From contig CAYVFQ010000006.1 in NCBI GenBank assembly GCA_964451045.1, forward strand, positions 1 to 18,938: a DNA stretch of 18,938 nt, read 5' to 3'. Source of the DNA: an uncultured archaeon. GTDB taxonomy: Archaea > Aenigmatarchaeota > Aenigmatarchaeia > CG10238-14 > SCSR01. Below the pieces are notes generated by a model. It was not told where the DNA came from. It made no database searches and saw only the letters and a program-made list of their open reading frames with translations. The position numbers and the translations under genes were made by a program. Shown here piece by piece: positions 6,797 to 13,097 of the stretch. Each line of letters starts with the position of its first letter. Position 1 is the first letter of the stretch.

Positions 6797-6925
6797 ATGC
6801 TTTGACAATTTTGATATTGTCGATGAGCATTATTTAAGCTTTGTATTTTATTAATCCACGACGCCGCATCGCAATTGTCTCGTCCTATGATTAAGTTTTT
6901 AATTGTTTCTACAGATTATAGTTTC

Positions 6926-7741
6926 ATGGAAAAACTTGTTCAGGTTATAAAATTTGGAGGATCTTCTCTTGCTTACGGTGAAGTAAAACCTCAGAGTATA
7001 GAAAACCTAATGGACAGCCCTGAACTGTACGTAAGAAATACTAGTGAACTAAGAAGATACGCTAAAGAACTGTCAGATGCTTGGAACTATCTTTCCAAAA
7101 ATAGAGATTATAGCTTGGTAATTTCACATGGTGTAAAACAATATGGTCATGATGCAGTCGGTTTTATCGGCATTGTGCCTGAGGTGAGAAAATATTGTAA
7201 ATTCTTTAGTGATATGATAGTAGAAAATTTTAGGGAAGAGGGGCTGCCTATAGAACAAATTGATGCTGCAAAAACATGCAAATGGAATGGAAAATTGAAA
7301 ATTTTTGAGGTTAGTAGGTATATCAGGGATGTCAGAAAAACACTTGATAGCGGAGCTATACCGGTTTCTTGGGGAACCGTTGTTGATAGCGTACCAACTG
7401 GATATGATATCATATCGGGTGATGATTGCGTTCTATATCCCGGGCTTCTGCTAAGAGCTGATGAGGCAATAATGTATATGGACGTTTCAGTATGTGATAA
7501 AAACCCTAAAATCCACAGAAATGCTAGAAAACTAGAAGTAGTGAAATCATGCAAAGATTTGAATATCGATATCGACAAACGAGACAAGACGGAAGGACTG
7601 ATTGGGAAAATCAAGAAATTGGAACTTCTGGGGATGAGTGGAACCAGATGCCAGATAGTTGACGCGACTAAAGAAGGAAATATTTACAATTCTCTGGTTG
7701 GGAAGCATGTCGGAACATTGATCGAACCGATTGAAATTTAG
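6926..7741 (+). CDS. Amino-acid-kinase-fold protein, isopentenyl-phosphate-kinase-like. Divergent, AT-rich gene.
   Basis: VIKFGGSSL Gly loop, ISHGVKQYGH (compare IPK VHGGGSFGH), DSGAIPVSWG, ISGDDCV...MYMDV, GTLI C-terminus. The ORF track extends to TTG 6875. The ATG at 6926 gives a canonical N-terminus for the fold. Confidence 0.55.
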   Translation: MEKLVQVIKFGGSSLAYGEVKPQSIENLMDSPELYVRNTSELRRYAKELSDAWNYLSKNRDYSLVISHGVKQYGHDAVGFIGIVPEVRKYCKFFSDMIVENFREEGLPIEQIDAAKTCKWNGKLKIFEVSRYIRDVRKTLDSGAIPVSWGTVVDSVPTGYDIISGDDCVLYPGLLLRADEAIMYMDVSVCDKNPKIHRNARKLEVVKSCKDLNIDIDKRDKTEGLIGKIKKLELLGMSGTRCQIVDATKEGNIYNSLVGKHVGTLIEPIEI

Positions 7742-8642: not shown

Positions 8643-8864
8643 CTACCACTTCAGCTTGTCGCTTTCCGTCAGTTTGAAATACCCCTCTATCATCAGGGAG
8701 ACTGCGACCAGAAAGCACATCATGGGAATCACGTAGAGCAGGCCTGTGTTCTCCAGCAAACTTTGCGGCAGGTTGAAGGCCAGAAAAACCAATATGCCGC
8801 CAAGGATGAAATATATCAAACCTAGTGTCTTCTTCAGTACAGTCGCAGTGTCAAGTATAAGCAT
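8643..8864 (-). CDS. Small two-TM membrane protein immediately downstream of the SPFH gene (possible NfeD-like or partner subunit)
   Basis: 73 aa and hydrophobic. Sits 31 nt downstream of the stomatin-like gene on the same strand. Confidence 0.4.
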   Translation of the reverse strand: MLILDTATVLKKTLGLIYFILGGILVFLAFNLPQSLLENTGLLYVIPMMCFLVAVSLMIEGYFKLTESDKLKW

Positions 8865-8895
8865 ATAATAAGATTAGAAAACGGTACTAAATAAA

Positions 8896-9837
8896 TTATT
8901 TCTTTGGCTTGGGGACCTTCGCACTTACACCAGACGACAGTACCGGGCTGTCCAAGGCCTCTGTCGGCGCAAATATTATTGTGTTGCTCTGATCCTGGCT
9001 GACATCAGAGATGGTCTGCAATTGGCGCAAAGCATAGGAATATTTTGATTTCGCAAGCTCGTCCGACGCTTTCCTCAAATTCTGCGCAGCTTCCAGCTCG
9101 CCTTCCGATGCGATGATGACCCCACGCTTCTCGCGCTCGGCCTCTGCCTGCCTTGCCATCACGCGCTTCATGTCTTCCGGCAGGGTTATGTCCTGCAGCT
9201 CCACTGAAATGATGTCCACCCCCCACTCGTCCGTAACCTCGTCCACGACTTTCTTTATCTCCTCTGCAATCTCCTCTCTCTTCGACAGCAGCTCGTCCAG
9301 GTCCTTCTGACCTATCACGTTTCGCAAAGTTGTCTGCGCATACTGCTTGACGCTATAGACGAAATCCTGTATCTCCACAATGGTTTTCCTCGTGTCCATC
9401 ACCTTGAGGAAGACGACCGCATCTATGCCCACCGAAATGTTGTCCCTCGTTATCACCTGCTGCTGCGGGATGTCCAGCGTGCGTATCCTCTTGTCCCTTC
9501 TCACATACGTCTCGAGTATCGGCCACTTGAAGAACAGTCCGGGCCCGACAGTCCTTTTGTACTTTCCGAATTTGAGAATTATCGCCTCTTCCCACTGGTT
9601 GTTTATCTTTATTGCTGACGATATGAGCGCCCACAACACTATCCCAGAAGCTATGACCAGTGACCCTGTCAATGCACTTCCCTGCATAAGCATCCAAATG
9701 CCTATTGAAAAGATTATCGCACTTGGTATGAACGCTATCAGCGCTGCTGCAGAAGAACCGCCATAAGTATCGGAAGACTCGCTTGAGCCGGACTTGAATG
9801 TCCTCCATTCGTAAGGGTATGTCTGGCCTACAACCAT
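8896..9837 (-). CDS. SPFH / band-7 (stomatin-like) membrane protein
   Basis: 313 aa. N-terminal TM helices followed by a typical SPFH domain (IDAVVFLKV, RNVIGQKDLDELL) and a C-terminal coiled-coil with an AEAEREKRG-like region. Confidence 0.85.
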   Translation of the reverse strand: MVVGQTYPYEWRTFKSGSSESSDTYGGSSAAALIAFIPSAIIFSIGIWMLMQGSALTGSLVIASGIVLWALISSAIKINNQWEEAIILKFGKYKRTVGPGLFFKWPILETYVRRDKRIRTLDIPQQQVITRDNISVGIDAVVFLKVMDTRKTIVEIQDFVYSVKQYAQTTLRNVIGQKDLDELLSKREEIAEEIKKVVDEVTDEWGVDIISVELQDITLPEDMKRVMARQAEAEREKRGVIIASEGELEAAQNLRKASDELAKSKYSYALRQLQTISDVSQDQSNTIIFAPTEALDSPVLSSGVSAKVPKPKK

Positions 9838-9890: not shown

Positions 9891-10064
9891 TCATTTCCAA
9901 AGGATATGTATGGCTGTCCCTGCAATAATGCCAACAACGGCTATCACGACTATCGTTTCTGCCAGACTAAAACCCATTGAACTCCTTAGCACTCCTGATA
10001 GCACTCCTGACAATGCTCCAACAACTCCCCCGATTACACCTGCCTTTTTATCAAACTTCATCAT
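9891..10064 (-). CDS. 57-aa glycine-zipper membrane micro-protein (MMKFDKKAGVIGGVVGALSGVLSGVL...)
   Basis: Strong Shine-Dalgarno AAAGGAGGGAAAG 5 nt upstream of ATGATG. GxxxG repeats and a second hydrophobic helix. Under 60 aa, so not in the ORF track. Confidence 0.5.
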   Translation of the reverse strand: MMKFDKKAGVIGGVVGALSGVLSGVLRSSMGFSLAETIVVIAVVGIIAGTAIHILWK

Positions 10065-10085: not shown

Positions 10086-10098
10086 AATGCTCCCGACG
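10086..10098. repeat. 13-bp direct repeat AATGCTCCCGACG, an exact copy of the tRNA-Glu 3' end. Putative distal att site of the inserted element.
   Basis: Identical to 12952-12964, which is the reverse complement of the tRNA-Glu T-stem end, acceptor 3' strand and discriminator. Confidence 0.55.
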
Positions 10099-10134
10099 AG
10101 TAAAAGCTTGAAAGACGTCCTATGCATCACTGAA

Positions 10135-10575
10135 TCAATCAGAAATGCCAACCCCGGTCAACTCGTAACCCATTCTGCGAACCATGGCATACAATACGTC
10201 TTCCTCAGAAGGGACCTTCATATTCAAAGCTTTCATATCCTTCCTTACGTCGTCGATCTCTTTTTTAATCCAAGATTCGGAATTAGCGGGTTTCTCAAAG
10301 AACCTCTTACTAACGAAATCCTGCCATTCACAGTAACTCACGCCATCTCCCATTAGGCCATTGTATCCTGTCAGCACAACCACTGCAGCTGCTACCGCCT
10401 CTTCATTTATCGGATTCCTATAGTAGAGTGGACTTACGTTTTCAAGGATCGCTTCTGCTGATTTATGTCCAGGAACGCCTGCTTCAATTCTCATTCTACC
10501 AAGTAAACGGTAAACCAAACTCCTGACAGTCGACTTGTTTGTCATGTCTTCCATTTGGGATTCTATCGCGTACAT
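10135..10575 (-). CDS. Hypothetical protein (146 aa), first gene inside the tRNA-Glu-linked insertion. Normal G+C.
   Basis: Long ORF with good codon structure and no recognisable motif. Confidence 0.5.
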   Translation of the reverse strand: MYAIESQMEDMTNKSTVRSLVYRLLGRMRIEAGVPGHKSAEAILENVSPLYYRNPINEEAVAAAVVVLTGYNGLMGDGVSYCEWQDFVSKRFFEKPANSESWIKKEIDDVRKDMKALNMKVPSEEDVLYAMVRRMGYELTGVGISD

Positions 10576-10645
10576 GTTGTCAGTGTAAATAATGAACTGA
10601 ATTATTAAGTTGATTTAGATGATCAAATGGATCTATTGGAGAAGA

Positions 10646-11527
10646 TCAATTCTTGTCACTAAAATGAGAGTTCCATTTTTTTATTGTTTTATTATAATGA
10701 TCGATTCCAGAACCACGTGTAAGTTTAATTCCATTGTTTTTATTGAATAGATGTTTATATTGCTTATGATTCAAAGTAGATGAAATTACTCTTTTACTTG
10801 GAATTTTCTTACATCCGAAATCTTTCATTATAGATATTATTTGATCTATATTCTCCACTTCCATGTTTTTCACAATAATAAGAATTCTGTCTATTGTAGA
10901 ATCGATTTTATATAATTTTGATATGTCAAATATTTCTTCTCTTAGTACTAGATTCATCTTTTCAAATGAGGCACTTAGGAGAGAATCAGTGATTTTTGAA
11001 CCAAACCCTAGACACCTATAGAAATTAACTATAATCCAGAAAATGTTTGAGATAGAAAGTTTCGCCTCATAAATTTTCAGCTTATTTGGTTTTAGATGAG
11101 TTCCTTCAAATTTGTTTCTAAGGGTGTAAGTCGAAATCATTGCATATATAAATGGATGATATTCATCTTTGATTACATTTCTTAATTTCAAACACTGTAG
11201 ATCAAATCCCGTATTCGGGATTTTCCACTTATTTAAGTAATAAAAATAATTTCGTATAGCTTCACAGACGTGTGCAGATTTAGTTATAACTCCGGATGGG
11301 TCATTCGGGTACTTTTCTAAAATTTTATCGAAGAGATGTAATACTGTAAACCCGGCCAATAGATTTTCCTTCTTGTTATTCCCTAACGAAGTATTATATT
11401 CACTAATTTTTAGATTCAATATTTCATCATAATCAAAATCAATTCGATTAACAAAAATTTCCCAAAATGCAGTTATGATAGGATCGTTTTCTCCCCAAAA
11501 AAGTTCAGTTAATTCTTTCATATTCAC
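10646..11527 (-). CDS. Hypothetical protein (293 aa), ORFan, about 27-30% G+C
   Basis: Long uninterrupted ORF in a strongly AT-rich segment, 3 nt downstream of the 403-aa ORF (operon). Predicted all-alpha, with no recognisable catalytic motif. Confidence 0.6.
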   Translation of the reverse strand: MNMKELTELFWGENDPIITAFWEIFVNRIDFDYDEILNLKISEYNTSLGNNKKENLLAGFTVLHLFDKILEKYPNDPSGVITKSAHVCEAIRNYFYYLNKWKIPNTGFDLQCLKLRNVIKDEYHPFIYAMISTYTLRNKFEGTHLKPNKLKIYEAKLSISNIFWIIVNFYRCLGFGSKITDSLLSASFEKMNLVLREEIFDISKLYKIDSTIDRILIIVKNMEVENIDQIISIMKDFGCKKIPSKRVISSTLNHKQYKHLFNKNNGIKLTRGSGIDHYNKTIKKWNSHFSDKN

Positions 11528-11530
11528 TCA

Positions 11531-12742
11531 TCAAGCTTTGTCTTTACCTAAATTTTTTCGTATTTCGTTTTCTAAAAACTCTATATCTTTTAAGATAATA
11601 TTTGGATCACTATTTTCTGCTTCTTTGAATGAAAGATAATGATATTCAATTAAATCCAAAATATTTTTTGGAACAATGGTAAACTCTTTAAGTTTATTCA
11701 AGTTTTCTGTGAATGTGTTATCATCTCTATTAGTTATAGCTACTTCGATTGCACCCAAATGTTTCCATAGTTTTGGGGATTCGATTATATTTGATTTCTT
11801 TTCAGATACTTCTTTTCTCTTTATGACCAATTTCCATTTCTTTTTCGAACCTTCTAACAGAGTTGTATTTTTTAACAAGTTCCAGATTTTTTTTCCAGCG
11901 TCTTTTGTGGTACTCTCAGACCAAGATTTTTTCAAATCGTGTCCAATCTTTTTACCTAAATTTATCTGAGTAACAAGTTTACCATCAAAGCTCTGTATAA
12001 GTGGAAGATATTTACTCTCAAGCATAATTGTAGTAAAAATATCTTTACGTTCAAGAGCTGTCAATGATGGATCTATTAATCTTTCACCATTTTCGTTTAT
12101 ACCATGGGTAGACCTAGAGAATCTGTTAACAAGGTTTAATGCATCTGCGACAGCTAGTATTCCCGGAAGTTTTCTTTCATGTATACCAGTTTCAATGCTT
12201 AATTTTTTATTGGACGTTGTACCTAATCTGTTTAAACCTCGTAAAGACCGTACAATATCATTATATGATGCTGATGGAATCGGGTATTCTTCTATGCTAC
12301 CCGCTTCGCCTTCCAACAATAAAGTATCACCAACTAGATACCCATTGCCACTGAAAGATATCAACGATGCACATGATTTTCCATAGGTCTTTGTCGATGC
12401 AGTTTTCCATTTTTTACCATACTTATCTTTAACGATATTTCCTATTTCCACGATAGTTAATTTTCCAGTAGCTTCTAATTTTTTAATTAAATAATCAAAT
12501 AGTTCTATGTCCTTAATAATTTTAGATAAAGTACTACGGGCTTTTTCAATATCATTTCTAATCAGAGCCTCGGTGTATATGTTACCAATAGGAGTTAAAT
12601 TACCTTCTTTATCCATAAATCCTAATAGAGTTAGTGTTGGAGCAACATTTCTGAACGATGGCGGCTTCTTGTTTTTATAAAGCAACTTTAGACTTTCATT
12701 CATCTTATGTGACTGTATATAGGGTATTATCATCACAATCAA
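11531..12742 (-). CDS. Hypothetical protein (403 aa), ORFan, about 27-30% G+C. Possible winged-helix-like N-terminal segments.
   Basis: Long ORF. No PD-(D/E)xK, HxxR...Y, P-loop or other recognisable motif by eye. An AT-rich promoter region lies upstream (12743-12950). Confidence 0.6.
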   Translation of the reverse strand: MIVMIIPYIQSHKMNESLKLLYKNKKPPSFRNVAPTLTLLGFMDKEGNLTPIGNIYTEALIRNDIEKARSTLSKIIKDIELFDYLIKKLEATGKLTIVEIGNIVKDKYGKKWKTASTKTYGKSCASLISFSGNGYLVGDTLLLEGEAGSIEEYPIPSASYNDIVRSLRGLNRLGTTSNKKLSIETGIHERKLPGILAVADALNLVNRFSRSTHGINENGERLIDPSLTALERKDIFTTIMLESKYLPLIQSFDGKLVTQINLGKKIGHDLKKSWSESTTKDAGKKIWNLLKNTTLLEGSKKKWKLVIKRKEVSEKKSNIIESPKLWKHLGAIEVAITNRDDNTFTENLNKLKEFTIVPKNILDLIEYHYLSFKEAENSDPNIILKDIEFLENEIRKNLGKDKA

Positions 12743-12951
12743 CTTTTTCCATTTTATTCATTTTATAATCATTCTTTTCAACTTTGATATTTAAATACTT
12801 CATTATTGGTATGTTTTTATTATATCATAATCTATTGTTCAATTACAAATCCCACAATAGGAATTGTAATGGAATATTGTTATAACTACGCGTATATCAC
12901 CCGCTAGAAGCAGTTTACGACTCATTTTCTAGGGAGTCGTTGTTACAGTAT

Positions 12952-12964
12952 AATGCTCCCGACG
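12952..12964. repeat. Proximal copy of the 13-bp direct repeat, forming the 3' end of tRNA-Glu
   Basis: Exact match to 10086-10098. Confidence 0.55.
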
Positions 12965-13097
12965 GGATTTGAACCCGTGCCATCGGGTATCTTCGTTCTG
13001 TCATGGCCGTGCGGCGTTTCTTACCGTGCGGCTCAACGCTTTCTTAGCATAAGCACTCGAAAGCCCGAGATCCTTGACCGGACTAGACGACGGGAGC
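12954..13097 (-). tRNA. tRNA-Glu(TTC) interrupted by an intron of about 69 nt at the canonical 37/38 position
   Basis: Minus-strand exons: GCTCCCG-TC-GTCT-AGTCCGGTCAA-GGAT-C-TCGGG-CTTTCGA | intron | CCCGA-TGGC-ACGGG-TTCAAAT-CCCGT-CGGGAGC-A. Anticodon TTC. Closely resembles archaeal tRNA-Glu. The 144-nt gene minus a 75-nt mature tRNA leaves about 69 nt of intron (roughly 12988-13056). Confidence 0.8.

What the first reader, a model, noticed from the sequence alone, without database searches (positions are those of the whole stretch)
10086..12964. About 2.9 kb insertion at the 3' end of an intron-containing tRNA-Glu, flanked by a 13-bp direct repeat of the tRNA terminus, with three unknown genes and no integrase
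The 13-mer AATGCTCCCGACG occurs at 10086-10098 and again at 12952-12964. The second copy is precisely the 3' end of tRNA-Glu (T-stem end, acceptor 3' strand, discriminator). The segment between the copies lies on the 3' side of the tRNA, as expected for tRNA-targeted site-specific integration. It holds three co-oriented genes (146, 293 and 403 aa), two of them at about 27-30% G+C against about 45-50% in the flanks. A chance 13-mer repeat somewhere in 19 kb is not rare. One that coincides with a tRNA 3' terminus and with a compositional boundary is. No tyrosine or serine recombinase is recognisable. So this is either a decayed or trans-mobilised element, or one of the ORFans is a new kind of recombinase.
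Basis: seen in the sequence. Interest (0 to 1): 0.8.

Follow-up and report, generated by a model that had tools for sequence, protein, structure and literature searches.

The report
Integrase-less islet at tRNA-Glu end
A 2.9 kb piece of foreign DNA sits just after an archaeal tRNA-Glu gene, bracketed by a 13-base copy of the tRNA's end. A related genome has the same 13 bases bracketing different genes, so this looks like a reused insertion site whose recombinase is encoded elsewhere.

Summary
AATGCTCCCGACG occurs only at 10086-10098 and 12952-12964. The second copy is the 3' end of an intron-containing tRNA-Glu(UUC) at 12954-13097 on the minus strand. Three co-oriented genes lie between the copies, and no integrase is present.

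The repeat is not chance. Simulation gives P of 0.0005 to 0.017. A related archaeal MAG contig (L003) carries the same 13-mer twice, 1066 bp apart, on the same side of the same SPFH gene, around different cargo.

The best reading is a small integrase-less islet, similar to a bacterial cis-mobilizable element (CIME). It was made by tRNA-targeted site-specific recombination, with the recombinase supplied in trans or lost.

The "new recombinase" idea is not supported:
- ORF3 is an array of winged-helix domains (model pLDDT 91) with no catalytic fold.
- L003 shares the site but none of the three genes.

Only ORF2 and ORF3 are low in G+C (10590-12890). They form a transferred two-gene module, found once more inside a defence island. 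The wider ORF3 family often sits next to Type I restriction-modification systems. ORF2 carries an Rx6H motif like that of HEPN RNases, which is unproven. No empty site or excised circle could be found. This is a new member of a known kind with uncharacterised cargo.

The parts
12954..13097 (-). tRNA-Glu(UUC) gene with a 69-nt intron. It is the integration target, and it is intact.
   Evidence: Rfam RF00005 scores 46.5 bits. ARAGORN -i calls tRNA-Glu (ttc) with intron i(41,69).
12952..12964 (.). Proximal 13-bp repeat (attL-like core). It comprises the last 11 nt of the tRNA (3 nt of T stem, acceptor 3' strand, discriminator) plus 2 nt downstream.
   Evidence: The same word sits at the end of the related contig L003.
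10086..10098 (.). Distal 13-bp repeat (attR-like core). It lies 36 nt after the ORF1 stop codon and 22 nt before the start of the 57-aa gene.
   Evidence: There is no extended similarity beyond 13 bp. A second, non-tRNA copy also exists in L003 at 1067-1079.
11531..12742 (-). ORF3 (403 aa; the public record aa). A tandem winged-helix protein with three to four winged-helix domains and a C-terminal four-helix bundle. Low G+C (32%).
   Evidence: - The AF2 model has pLDDT 91.
- The best Foldseek matches are the FokI and N.BspD6I recognition domains and the SelB winged helices.
- The family has 55 representatives.
- Pfam hits on members are almost all winged-helix or HTH DNA-binding domains.
10646..11527 (-). 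ORF2 (293 aa), the partner of ORF3. It has a conserved R137-N-x5-H144 motif (HEPN-like Rx6H) and a C-terminal region that looks like a winged helix. Low G+C (29%).
   Evidence: - Its only homologue is the gene immediately downstream of the ORF3 homologue in L028 (37% identity, E 5e-57).
- The motif is conserved in both sequences.
- No profile library matches it.
10135..10575 (-). ORF1 (146 aa), an ORFan with near-host composition (44% G+C, GC3 0.46). It lies inside the repeat-bounded segment but is not part of the ORF2-ORF3 module.
   Evidence: It has no homologue among 5.8 billion clusters. No family or PDB match was found. It is absent next to the module in L028.
10590..12890 (.). Sharp low-G+C block (22-37% G+C apart from a 40-43% stretch at about 12100-12400, against 44-58% outside). 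This is the horizontally acquired ORF2-ORF3 module with its AT-rich upstream region.
   Evidence: Fine G+C profile and codon-position G+C. The only close relative of the module sits in a genome with about 30% G+C.

Best explanation
The segment 10099-12951 is a small genomic islet without an integrase. It was inserted by site-specific recombination into the 3' end of tRNA-Glu(UUC).

**How the insertion works (inferred).** A recombinase acted on a 13-bp core, AATGCTCCCGACG, shared by the incoming DNA and the tRNA end. The most likely enzyme is a tyrosine recombinase, as for other archaeal elements that target tRNA genes. Recombination regenerated an intact tRNA at the proximal junction and left a second copy of the core at the distal junction. 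The recombinase is not in the islet or in the 19 kb contig. It is supplied in trans by another element or the chromosome, or it has been lost. This resembles a bacterial cis-mobilizable element (CIME).

**The site is reused in this lineage (shown).** A related genome has the same core duplicated around different, equally small cargo.

**The cargo is a mosaic.** It has two parts:
- A two-gene module acquired from a low-G+C donor. ORF3 is a tandem winged-helix DNA-binding protein. ORF2 is a partner with an Rx6H motif like that of HEPN RNases, plus a probable winged helix.
- ORF1, an ORFan.

I infer that the module is a defence-type or toxin-antitoxin-type unit. ORF3 would sense or bind nucleic acid and control ORF2 as the effector.

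**What is shown and what is inferred.**
- Shown: the repeats, the tRNA, the recurrence in L003, the fold of ORF3, the conservation of the module, and its genomic neighbours.
- Inferred: the recombination event itself, recombinase supply in trans, and the function of the module.
For: **The repeat and the tRNA**
- The repeat is exact and unique.
- It is the tRNA-Glu 3' terminus.
- Chance probability is 0.0005 to 0.017.

**Independent recurrence in L003**
- L003 belongs to a related archaeon. Its SPFH gene is 75% identical in protein and 76% in DNA.
- It has the identical 13-mer twice, 1066 bp apart and in the same orientation, on the same side of SPFH.
- One copy is at the contig end, where the tRNA should begin.
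- The cargo differs: ORFans of 108 and 177 aa.
- The flanks are unrelated to those in the window.
- Identity ends at the same base...CGACG|, in both genomes.
- The word is absent from 35 other loci, about 480 kb.

**Precedent.** The archaeal virus SNJ2 integrates into tRNA-Met with 14-bp direct repeats matching the 3'-distal part of the tRNA (PMC5861418). CIMEs are defined as elements that keep attL and attR but lack integration genes (PMC5704250).

**Foreign origin of ORF2-ORF3**
- GC3 is 0.25 against about 0.6 in the host.
- The only close homologues are an adjacent gene pair in a genome of about 30% G+C.

**Defence association**
- That pair lies beside Type I restriction-modification genes, an Mrr-type PDC-S02 protein and a Cas4-like nuclease.
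- Other family members lie beside Type I restriction-modification genes in L031, L033/L034 and L035.
- In L033 a tyrosine integrase lies about 1.1 kb upstream.
- In L030 a ParE toxin is nearby. In L037 there is an SbcCD-like ATPase.

**ORF3 fold:**

**The ORF2 motif** fits the published HEPN definition: a spacer of up to 6 residues and a polar residue after the arginine (PMC3710099).
Against: - No empty site (attB) and no circular junction (attP) was found in the metagenome or viral collections. No other genome with this tRNA-Glu was found there either. Excision and trans-mobilisation are therefore untested.
- No recombinase is known for this site.
- The low-G+C block does not fill the repeat-bounded segment. 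ORF1 and the 60 bp next to the tRNA look nearly host-like. At least two acquisition events, or a mosaic donor, must be assumed.
- In L003 the tRNA itself is off the contig, so that its end copy is the tRNA terminus is inferred.
- In L003 the DNA between the distal copy and SPFH is also low in G+C and foreign-looking (a methyltransferase gene), yet it is not bounded by a third repeat.
- The closest relative by SPFH (L004, 83%) has neither the 13-mer nor a tRNA-Glu nearby.
- The HEPN assignment of ORF2 rests on a short motif in two sequences. No profile or structure supports it.
Confidence: 0.65

Rival explanations
1. The islet is self-mobile, and one of its three ORFans is a new kind of site-specific recombinase.
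For: All three proteins lack matches in Pfam, PADLOC, PHROGs and NCBIfam. ORF3 binds nucleic acid, judging by its fold. ORF1 has no homologue at all, so nothing can be excluded for it from sequence alone.
Against: - ORF3 is a confident array of winged-helix domains with no catalytic domain. No recombinase, DDE or serine-recombinase fold is among the matches.
- The only invariant columns in 31 family members are G, G, W and G.
- The ORF2-ORF3 pair in L028 has no tRNA, and none of the ORF3-family loci scanned has one. Flanking repeats were looked for only in L033, where none stood out.
- The L003 islet uses the same 13-bp core but contains none of ORF1, ORF2 or ORF3. The site does not travel with these genes.
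- No split integrase of the SSV type can be assembled across the joined ends. Only about 260 bp of non-coding DNA is left.
Confidence: 0.04
2. The islet is a dead remnant. A larger integrase-bearing element integrated at tRNA-Glu and then lost its integrase and most of its genes by deletion. The ORF2-ORF3 module was inserted later. The repeats are fossils and the islet no longer moves.
For: The evidence for integration is the same as for the best explanation. The mosaic composition suggests more than one event. Decayed elements in tandem at tRNA genes are common in bacteria (PMC5704250).
Against: Both repeats are perfect in both genomes, with sharp edges. Two related genomes each carry a very small cargo (1.05 kb and 2.85 kb) that is entirely different. 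This is easier to explain by turnover at an active site than by two independent decays to near nothing. The L003 contig ends exactly on the last base of the core. That is what an assembly-graph branch at alternative junctions would produce, although coverage is only about 5x.
Confidence: 0.25
3. The repeat is a coincidence. The low-G+C genes arrived by some unrelated route next to a tRNA.
For: The window holds 4 direct repeats of 13 bp or more, against 2.8 expected. The low-G+C block does not reach the distal repeat.
Against: P is 0.0005 to 0.017 for a repeat of a tRNA terminus. The identical 13-mer is also duplicated in L003, a 5.9 kb contig, at the equivalent locus. It is found in no other fetched locus apart from L001, an assembly of the window's own genome.
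Confidence: 0.03
4. The repeat is a target-site duplication made by a transposase or casposase. Casposons make duplications of about 14-15 bp and some target tRNA 3' ends (from my own knowledge). The islet would then be a non-autonomous derivative.
For: The short perfect direct repeat is of about the right length, it lies at a tRNA 3' end, and no enzyme is encoded inside.
Against: There are no terminal inverted repeats at the ends of the repeat-bounded segment. No Cas1, casposase or transposase is in the window. The repeat boundary inside the tRNA is the same in two genomes with different cargo, which fits a fixed crossover site.
Confidence: 0.03

Closest known systems
Archaeal integrative elements that target tRNA genes through tyrosine recombinases with short cores, such as pleolipovirus SNJ2 in tRNA-Met (PMC5861418)
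   Same: Direct repeats of 13-14 bp are identical to the 3'-distal part of a tRNA gene. The tRNA is regenerated intact. The element lies downstream of the tRNA.
   Different: No integrase or accessory genes lie inside or next to the repeats. The element is only 2.85 kb. No circular form or empty site has been demonstrated.
Cis-mobilizable elements (CIMEs) and accretion arrays at tRNA genes in bacteria (PMC5704250)
   Same: The islet keeps attL-like and attR-like sites but has no integration or transfer genes. It is presumably dependent on a recombinase in trans. The site is reused by different cargo.
   Different: CIMEs are defined in bacteria as derivatives of integrative conjugative or mobilizable elements. 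Here the host is an uncultured archaeon, no parent element is known, and mobilisation is untested.
SSV-type archaeal integrated elements with a partitioned integrase gene (PMC7253208)
   Same: tRNA-targeted integration in archaea that produces direct repeats.
   Different: In SSV-type elements the att site lies inside the integrase gene, so fragments of that gene flank the provirus. No such fragments exist here.
HEPN-containing toxin or abortive-infection modules associated with restriction-modification systems and winged-helix proteins (PMC3710099)
   Same: ORF2 has an R-N-x5-H motif that fits the Rx4-6H definition. It is paired with a winged-helix protein. Family members sit beside Type I restriction-modification systems and in defence islands.
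   Different: No profile or structural evidence shows that ORF2 is a HEPN domain. The tandem winged-helix partner, about 400-440 aa, is not a described family.
DNA-recognition domains of Type IIS enzymes (FokI, N.BspD6I), made of tandem winged-helix-like subdomains
   Same: These are the best whole-chain Foldseek matches of the ORF3 model, through several consecutive winged-helix domains.
   Different: The E-values are weak (0.008 or worse) and the TM-scores low. ORF3 has no cleavage domain. No methyltransferase is in the islet.

Membership tests
tRNA-targeting site-specific integrative element (tyrosine-recombinase type) | Direct repeats identical to the 3' part of a tRNA gene bracket the element, with an intact tRNA at one junction | tested here: met
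   The pattern recurs in L003.
tRNA-targeting site-specific integrative element (tyrosine-recombinase type) | An integrase is encoded by the element, usually next to an att site | tested here: not met
   The three ORFs have no integrase domain, and none of the other window ORFs scanned with Pfam has one. The ORF3 fold is winged helix only.
tRNA-targeting site-specific integrative element (tyrosine-recombinase type) | Empty attB sites in relatives, or an excised circular attP form | tested here: inconclusive
   Exact-match scans for the predicted attB, the predicted attP and the tRNA 3' half found nothing in the metagenome and viral collections. The lineage seems to be absent from those collections. 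Reads could not be mapped.
Cis-mobilizable element (CIME) | Retains attL and attR but lacks integration and transfer genes | tested here: met
Cis-mobilizable element (CIME) | Excised or mobilised by the integrase of a cognate element in trans | not testable with these tools
   The rest of the genome and the reads are needed. The window is the whole 18.9 kb contig.
SSV-type integrated element | N-terminal and C-terminal integrase gene fragments overlap the two att copies | tested here: not met
   The ORF list shows only about 260 bp of non-coding DNA besides the three genes. No ORF spans the joined ends.
Casposon or transposon with target-site duplication | Terminal inverted repeats just inside the duplication, and a casposase or transposase in autonomous copies | tested here: not met
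   No terminal inverted repeats at the ends. No such enzyme in the window.
Integron gene cassette | An adjacent intI integrase with attI, and cassettes ending in attC sites | tested here: not met
   The neighbours are tRNA-Ile, tRNA-Ala and a metallophosphoesterase. No integrase is present. The repeat is a tRNA terminus, and no attC-like inverted repeat stands out at the ends.
HEPN superfamily (ORF2) | Rx4-6H motif with a polar residue after the arginine | tested here: met
   RNKFEGTH at residues 137-144 is conserved as RNKFFGAH in the only homologue. The definition is from PMC3710099.
HEPN superfamily (ORF2) | All-alpha HEPN fold or a significant profile match | tested here: inconclusive
   No hit in Pfam (even at E of 10 on the isolated region), NCBIfam, PADLOC or a PDB profile search.
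Winged-helix DNA-binding proteins (ORF3) | Winged helix-turn-helix fold | tested here: met

The most novel reading that the evidence does not exclude
The 13-bp core at the tRNA-Glu 3' end is the docking site of a cassette-exchange system in an uncultured archaeal lineage. Very small units of 1-3 kb, without an integrase, are inserted, swapped and possibly circularised by a recombinase encoded elsewhere. This is functionally analogous to integron cassettes or CIMEs, but tied to a tRNA. One such unit carries a previously undescribed defence-type module: a tandem winged-helix sensor plus an HEPN-like effector. The wider family of that module accompanies Type I restriction-modification systems.
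Probability: 0.2. Interest if true: 0.7.

Novelty: new member of a known kind. Interest (0 to 1): 0.45.

Why it matters
If the islet is moved in trans, it would be an archaeal counterpart of bacterial cis-mobilizable elements. It would show that a tRNA 3' end can act as a reusable docking site for very small gene packages in poorly known archaea. The ORF3 family has about 55 representative sequences, has no family-specific match in the Pfam, NCBIfam or PADLOC copies searched, and recurs next to Type I restriction-modification systems. Together with its variable partners it is a candidate new accessory or defence module worth testing. The predicted attB and attP junction sequences make the mobility question directly testable by read mapping or PCR.

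Tried and rejected
**Searches for an empty site, a circle or relatives**
- Scans of metagenome contigs for the predicted empty site and for the tRNA-Glu 3' half found nothing.
- Scans of viral contigs for the predicted attP junction and for the tRNA 3' end found nothing.
- Exact-protein look-ups of the flanking genes (57-aa gene, metallophosphoesterase) returned nothing. SPFH and ORF1 were found only on short contigs from the same sample.
- Relatives found through SPFH in the genome collection gave no usable empty site. L004 is syntenic up to SPFH, but that block is inverted and no tRNA-Glu lies within 10 kb.

**Tool problems**
- Rfam scans of several loci at once returned nothing, even where ARAGORN finds tRNAs (against 40, 66). 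I did not use those negatives.
- The afdb50 fold library was unavailable.
The first ORF3 model, built from 2 sequences, was too poor to use (pLDDT 49).

**Searches for the genes in mobile elements**
- Profile-based locus searches failed or found nothing.
- ORF3, a central family member (P0008) and ORF2 have no tblastn match in the plasmid collection. ORF3 has none in the phage collection either.
- The viral structure library gave only generic winged-helix matches.

**Ideas considered and rejected**
- A longer, degraded tRNA fragment at the distal repeat: no similarity above shuffles on either side.
- Terminal inverted repeats: none at the ends. A 17-nt imperfect inverted repeat brackets ORF2-ORF3 (10607-10623 and 12729-12745), but it is of a kind expected by chance in AT-rich DNA.
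- Direct repeats around the integrase-bearing island in L033: only AT-rich noise.


Full report
**Observation**

The 13-mer AATGCTCCCGACG occurs exactly twice in the 18,938-base window, at 10086-10098 and 12952-12964. No further copy exists with up to one mismatch.

Rfam finds a tRNA with an internal insert at 12954-13097 on the minus strand (46.5 bits). ARAGORN in intron mode calls it tRNA-Glu(ttc) with a 69-nt intron. The default bacterial mode had missed it.

Read on the tRNA strand, the repeat is CGT-CGGGAGC-A-TT. That is the end of the T stem, the acceptor 3' strand, the discriminator, and two bases beyond the gene. The bracketed DNA lies downstream of the tRNA. It holds three minus-strand genes:
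- ORF3, 403 aa, 11531-12742
- ORF2, 293 aa, 10646-11527
- ORF1, 146 aa, 10135-10575

The rest of the window is ordinary archaeal chromosome. It carries RNA polymerase subunit Rpb5, ThiI, superoxide dismutase, rubrerythrin, an ABC transporter, an SPFH protein and three more tRNAs. No integrase was found among the ORFs scanned; four ORFs of unknown function have no Pfam match.

**Is the repeat more than chance?**

Direct repeats of this length are not unusual here. The window has four of 13 bp or more, against 2.8 in block shuffles. A repeat that covers a tRNA 3' terminus is unusual. I kept the four tRNAs fixed and shuffled the rest 2000 times:
- Any tRNA 3' half repeated anywhere downstream: 1.7% of shuffles.
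- A repeat covering the terminus: 0.35%.
- A repeat covering the terminus with its second copy within 5 kb: 0.05%.

Identity stops sharply at 13 bp. Neither side shows gapped similarity above shuffles.

**The decisive result: the same site in a related genome**

A search of all fetched loci for the 13-mer found it in only two of them, apart from the window itself:
- L001, the window's own genome in another assembly.
- L003, where it occurs twice.

L003 is a 5.9 kb contig of a related uncultured archaeon. Its SPFH gene is 75% identical to the window's in protein and 76% in DNA.

The two L003 copies are 1066 bp apart and in the same orientation. They lie on the same side of SPFH as in the window. 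One copy is the last 13 bases of the contig, where the tRNA would begin. The other is internal and is followed by non-tRNA sequence.

The DNA between the copies encodes two unrelated ORFans of 108 and 177 aa, and no integrase. All four flanks differ from those in the window. In both genomes identity ends at the same base...CGACG|.

Two related genomes thus have different small cargos bounded by the same core with the same crossover edge. This excludes coincidence. It points to a fixed recombination site that is used repeatedly.

There is experimental precedent for such a short core. The archaeal virus SNJ2 integrates into tRNA-Met with 14-bp direct repeats matching the 3'-distal part of the tRNA (PMC5861418).

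**Composition**

Only part of the bracketed segment is compositionally foreign. The low-G+C block runs from about 10590 to 12890. It covers ORF2, ORF3 and their AT-rich upstream region. Codon third-position G+C (GC3) is 0.25 there, against 0.55-0.68 in most host genes.

ORF1 (GC3 0.46) and the 60 bp next to the tRNA are close to host values. The islet is therefore a mosaic.

**The cargo**

ORF1 has no homologue in 5.8 billion protein clusters. It matches no family and no solved structure.

ORF3 has one close relative, P0002, at 42% identity. On a 55 kb contig with about 30% G+C throughout, that gene is followed directly by a homologue of ORF2 (37% identity, E 5e-57). ORF3 and ORF2 are therefore a conserved two-gene module, probably from a low-G+C donor.

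In that contig the module lies beside Type I restriction-modification genes, an Mrr-type PDC-S02 protein and a Cas4-like nuclease. No tRNA is nearby.

A profile of the two ORF3 sequences found 55 representative proteins of about 430 aa in 1.84 billion. Pfam hits on 31 members are almost all winged-helix or helix-turn-helix (HTH) DNA-binding domains. PADLOC hits are to defence-protein models that contain winged-helix parts, such as Csa3 and CasR.

With that alignment, AlphaFold gives a confident model of ORF3 (pLDDT 91). It has three to four winged-helix domains and a C-terminal four-helix bundle. Structure searches gave:
- Foldseek: the best whole-chain matches are proteins with tandem winged helices, namely the FokI and N.BspD6I recognition domains, SelB and RPC62. 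All are weak.

No recombinase fold appears. The only invariant residues across the family are G, G, W and G.

**Neighbourhoods of the ORF3 family**

Contexts of other family members are rich in defence genes:
- Type I restriction-modification genes lie immediately downstream in L033/L034 and nearby in L035.
- A Type I restriction enzyme fragment lies in L031.
- A tyrosine integrase lies about 1.1 kb upstream in L033.
- A ParE toxin is nearby in L030.
- An SbcCD-like ATPase is in L037.

Partner genes vary between subfamilies.

ORF2 has a conserved R-N-x5-H motif (RNKFEGTH; RNKFFGAH in its homologue). This fits the published definition of the HEPN RNase motif, including the polar residue after the arginine (PMC3710099). 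The partner gene in L030 has RNMAHH. This is motif-level evidence only. No profile library matches ORF2, and I could not obtain a structure.

**Most likely mechanism**

I read the segment as an islet without an integrase, created by tRNA-targeted site-specific recombination at a 13-bp core. The recombinase is either provided in trans or lost. This is the logic of a bacterial cis-mobilizable element, which keeps attL and attR but not its integration genes (PMC5704250).

The cargo includes a horizontally acquired module. I infer that it acts as a defence-type or toxin-antitoxin-type unit, with a tandem winged-helix nucleic-acid binder controlling an HEPN-like effector.

The repeats, the tRNA, the recurrence, the ORF3 fold and the neighbourhoods are shown. 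The recombination event, trans-mobilisation and module function are inferred.

**Rival explanations**

- *A self-encoded novel recombinase.* This is unlikely. The L003 islet shares the site but none of the genes. The module occurs elsewhere without a tRNA nearby. ORF3 has no catalytic features.
- *A dead remnant.* This remains a serious alternative and cannot be separated from trans-mobilisation without reads. The perfect repeats, the two tiny and unrelated cargos, and the L003 contig ending exactly on the last base of the core lean towards an active site.
- *A transposon-type or casposon-type target duplication.* This is disfavoured by the absence of terminal inverted repeats.

**What could not be done**

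No empty site, circular junction or other genome with this tRNA-Glu was found in the metagenome or viral collections. The closest SPFH relative, L004, is rearranged at this point. The contig is the whole record, so the recombinase may lie elsewhere in the genome.

**Verdict**

The integration reading is supported, and strengthened by an independent genome. The 'new recombinase' reading is not supported.

The element is a new archaeal example of a known kind, an att-flanked islet without an integrase at a tRNA gene. Its cargo is uncharacterised and moderately interesting.

Noticed in passing
L003:1-13 (contig end): The related contig ends exactly on the last base of the 13-mer. L003's own repeat is 15 bp (TG plus the 13-mer). 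A contig that stops at the edge of the core is what an assembly-graph fork between alternative junctions (tRNA or circle) would produce. Coverage is only about 5x, so this may be accidental.
   Followed up: partly
L003:1096-1911: Between the distal 13-mer and SPFH, the related genome has a low-G+C (30-34%) gene for a class I SAM methyltransferase-like protein and a 42-aa zinc-ribbon-like ORF. The window has a 57-aa membrane-protein gene there instead. This stretch is also variable, but it is not bounded by a third repeat.
   Followed up: partly
L004:9450-11101 compared with window 8643-9837: In the closest relative by SPFH (83%), the SPFH and 73-aa gene block is inverted relative to the window. 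Neither the 13-mer nor tRNA-Glu lies within 10 kb. The rearrangement breakpoint sits at the edge of the variable region.
   Followed up: partly
window 6875-7741: An amino-acid-kinase family gene beside tRNA-Leu has 37% G+C and GC3 of 0.31, well below its neighbours. The syntenic relative L004 has a 953-aa ORF at this place instead. This may be a second variable spot next to a tRNA.
   Followed up: no
window 9987-10010: A perfect 12-bp tandem duplication, TAGCACTCCTGA twice, lies inside the 57-aa gene next to the distal repeat.
   Followed up: no
window 10607-10623 and 12729-12745: An imperfect 17-nt inverted repeat (15 of 17) brackets the ORF2-ORF3 module. About ten such pairs are expected by chance in this AT-rich DNA, so it is probably not meaningful.
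   Followed up: partly
window 12995-13063 (tRNA-Glu intron): The 69-nt intron contains the 9-mer CCGTGCGGC twice, 19 nt apart on the plus strand. I did not examine its structure or the splicing motif.
   Followed up: no
L031, L033, L037 (genes downstream of ORF3-like genes): A larger variant of the operon recurs. It has an ORF3-like gene, a 236-246 aa protein and a 318-342 aa protein with a conserved H-D/G-R-W-I/L-I-S-K motif, often beside Type I restriction-modification genes. In L033, a 179-aa gene between hsdM and hsdS has an RNNLFH motif, which is HEPN-like.
   Followed up: partly
L004, L033 and other loci: Rfam scans of several loci at once returned no matches, even for a tRNA-Leu that ARAGORN finds in L004. 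Those negative results should not be trusted.
   Followed up: yes
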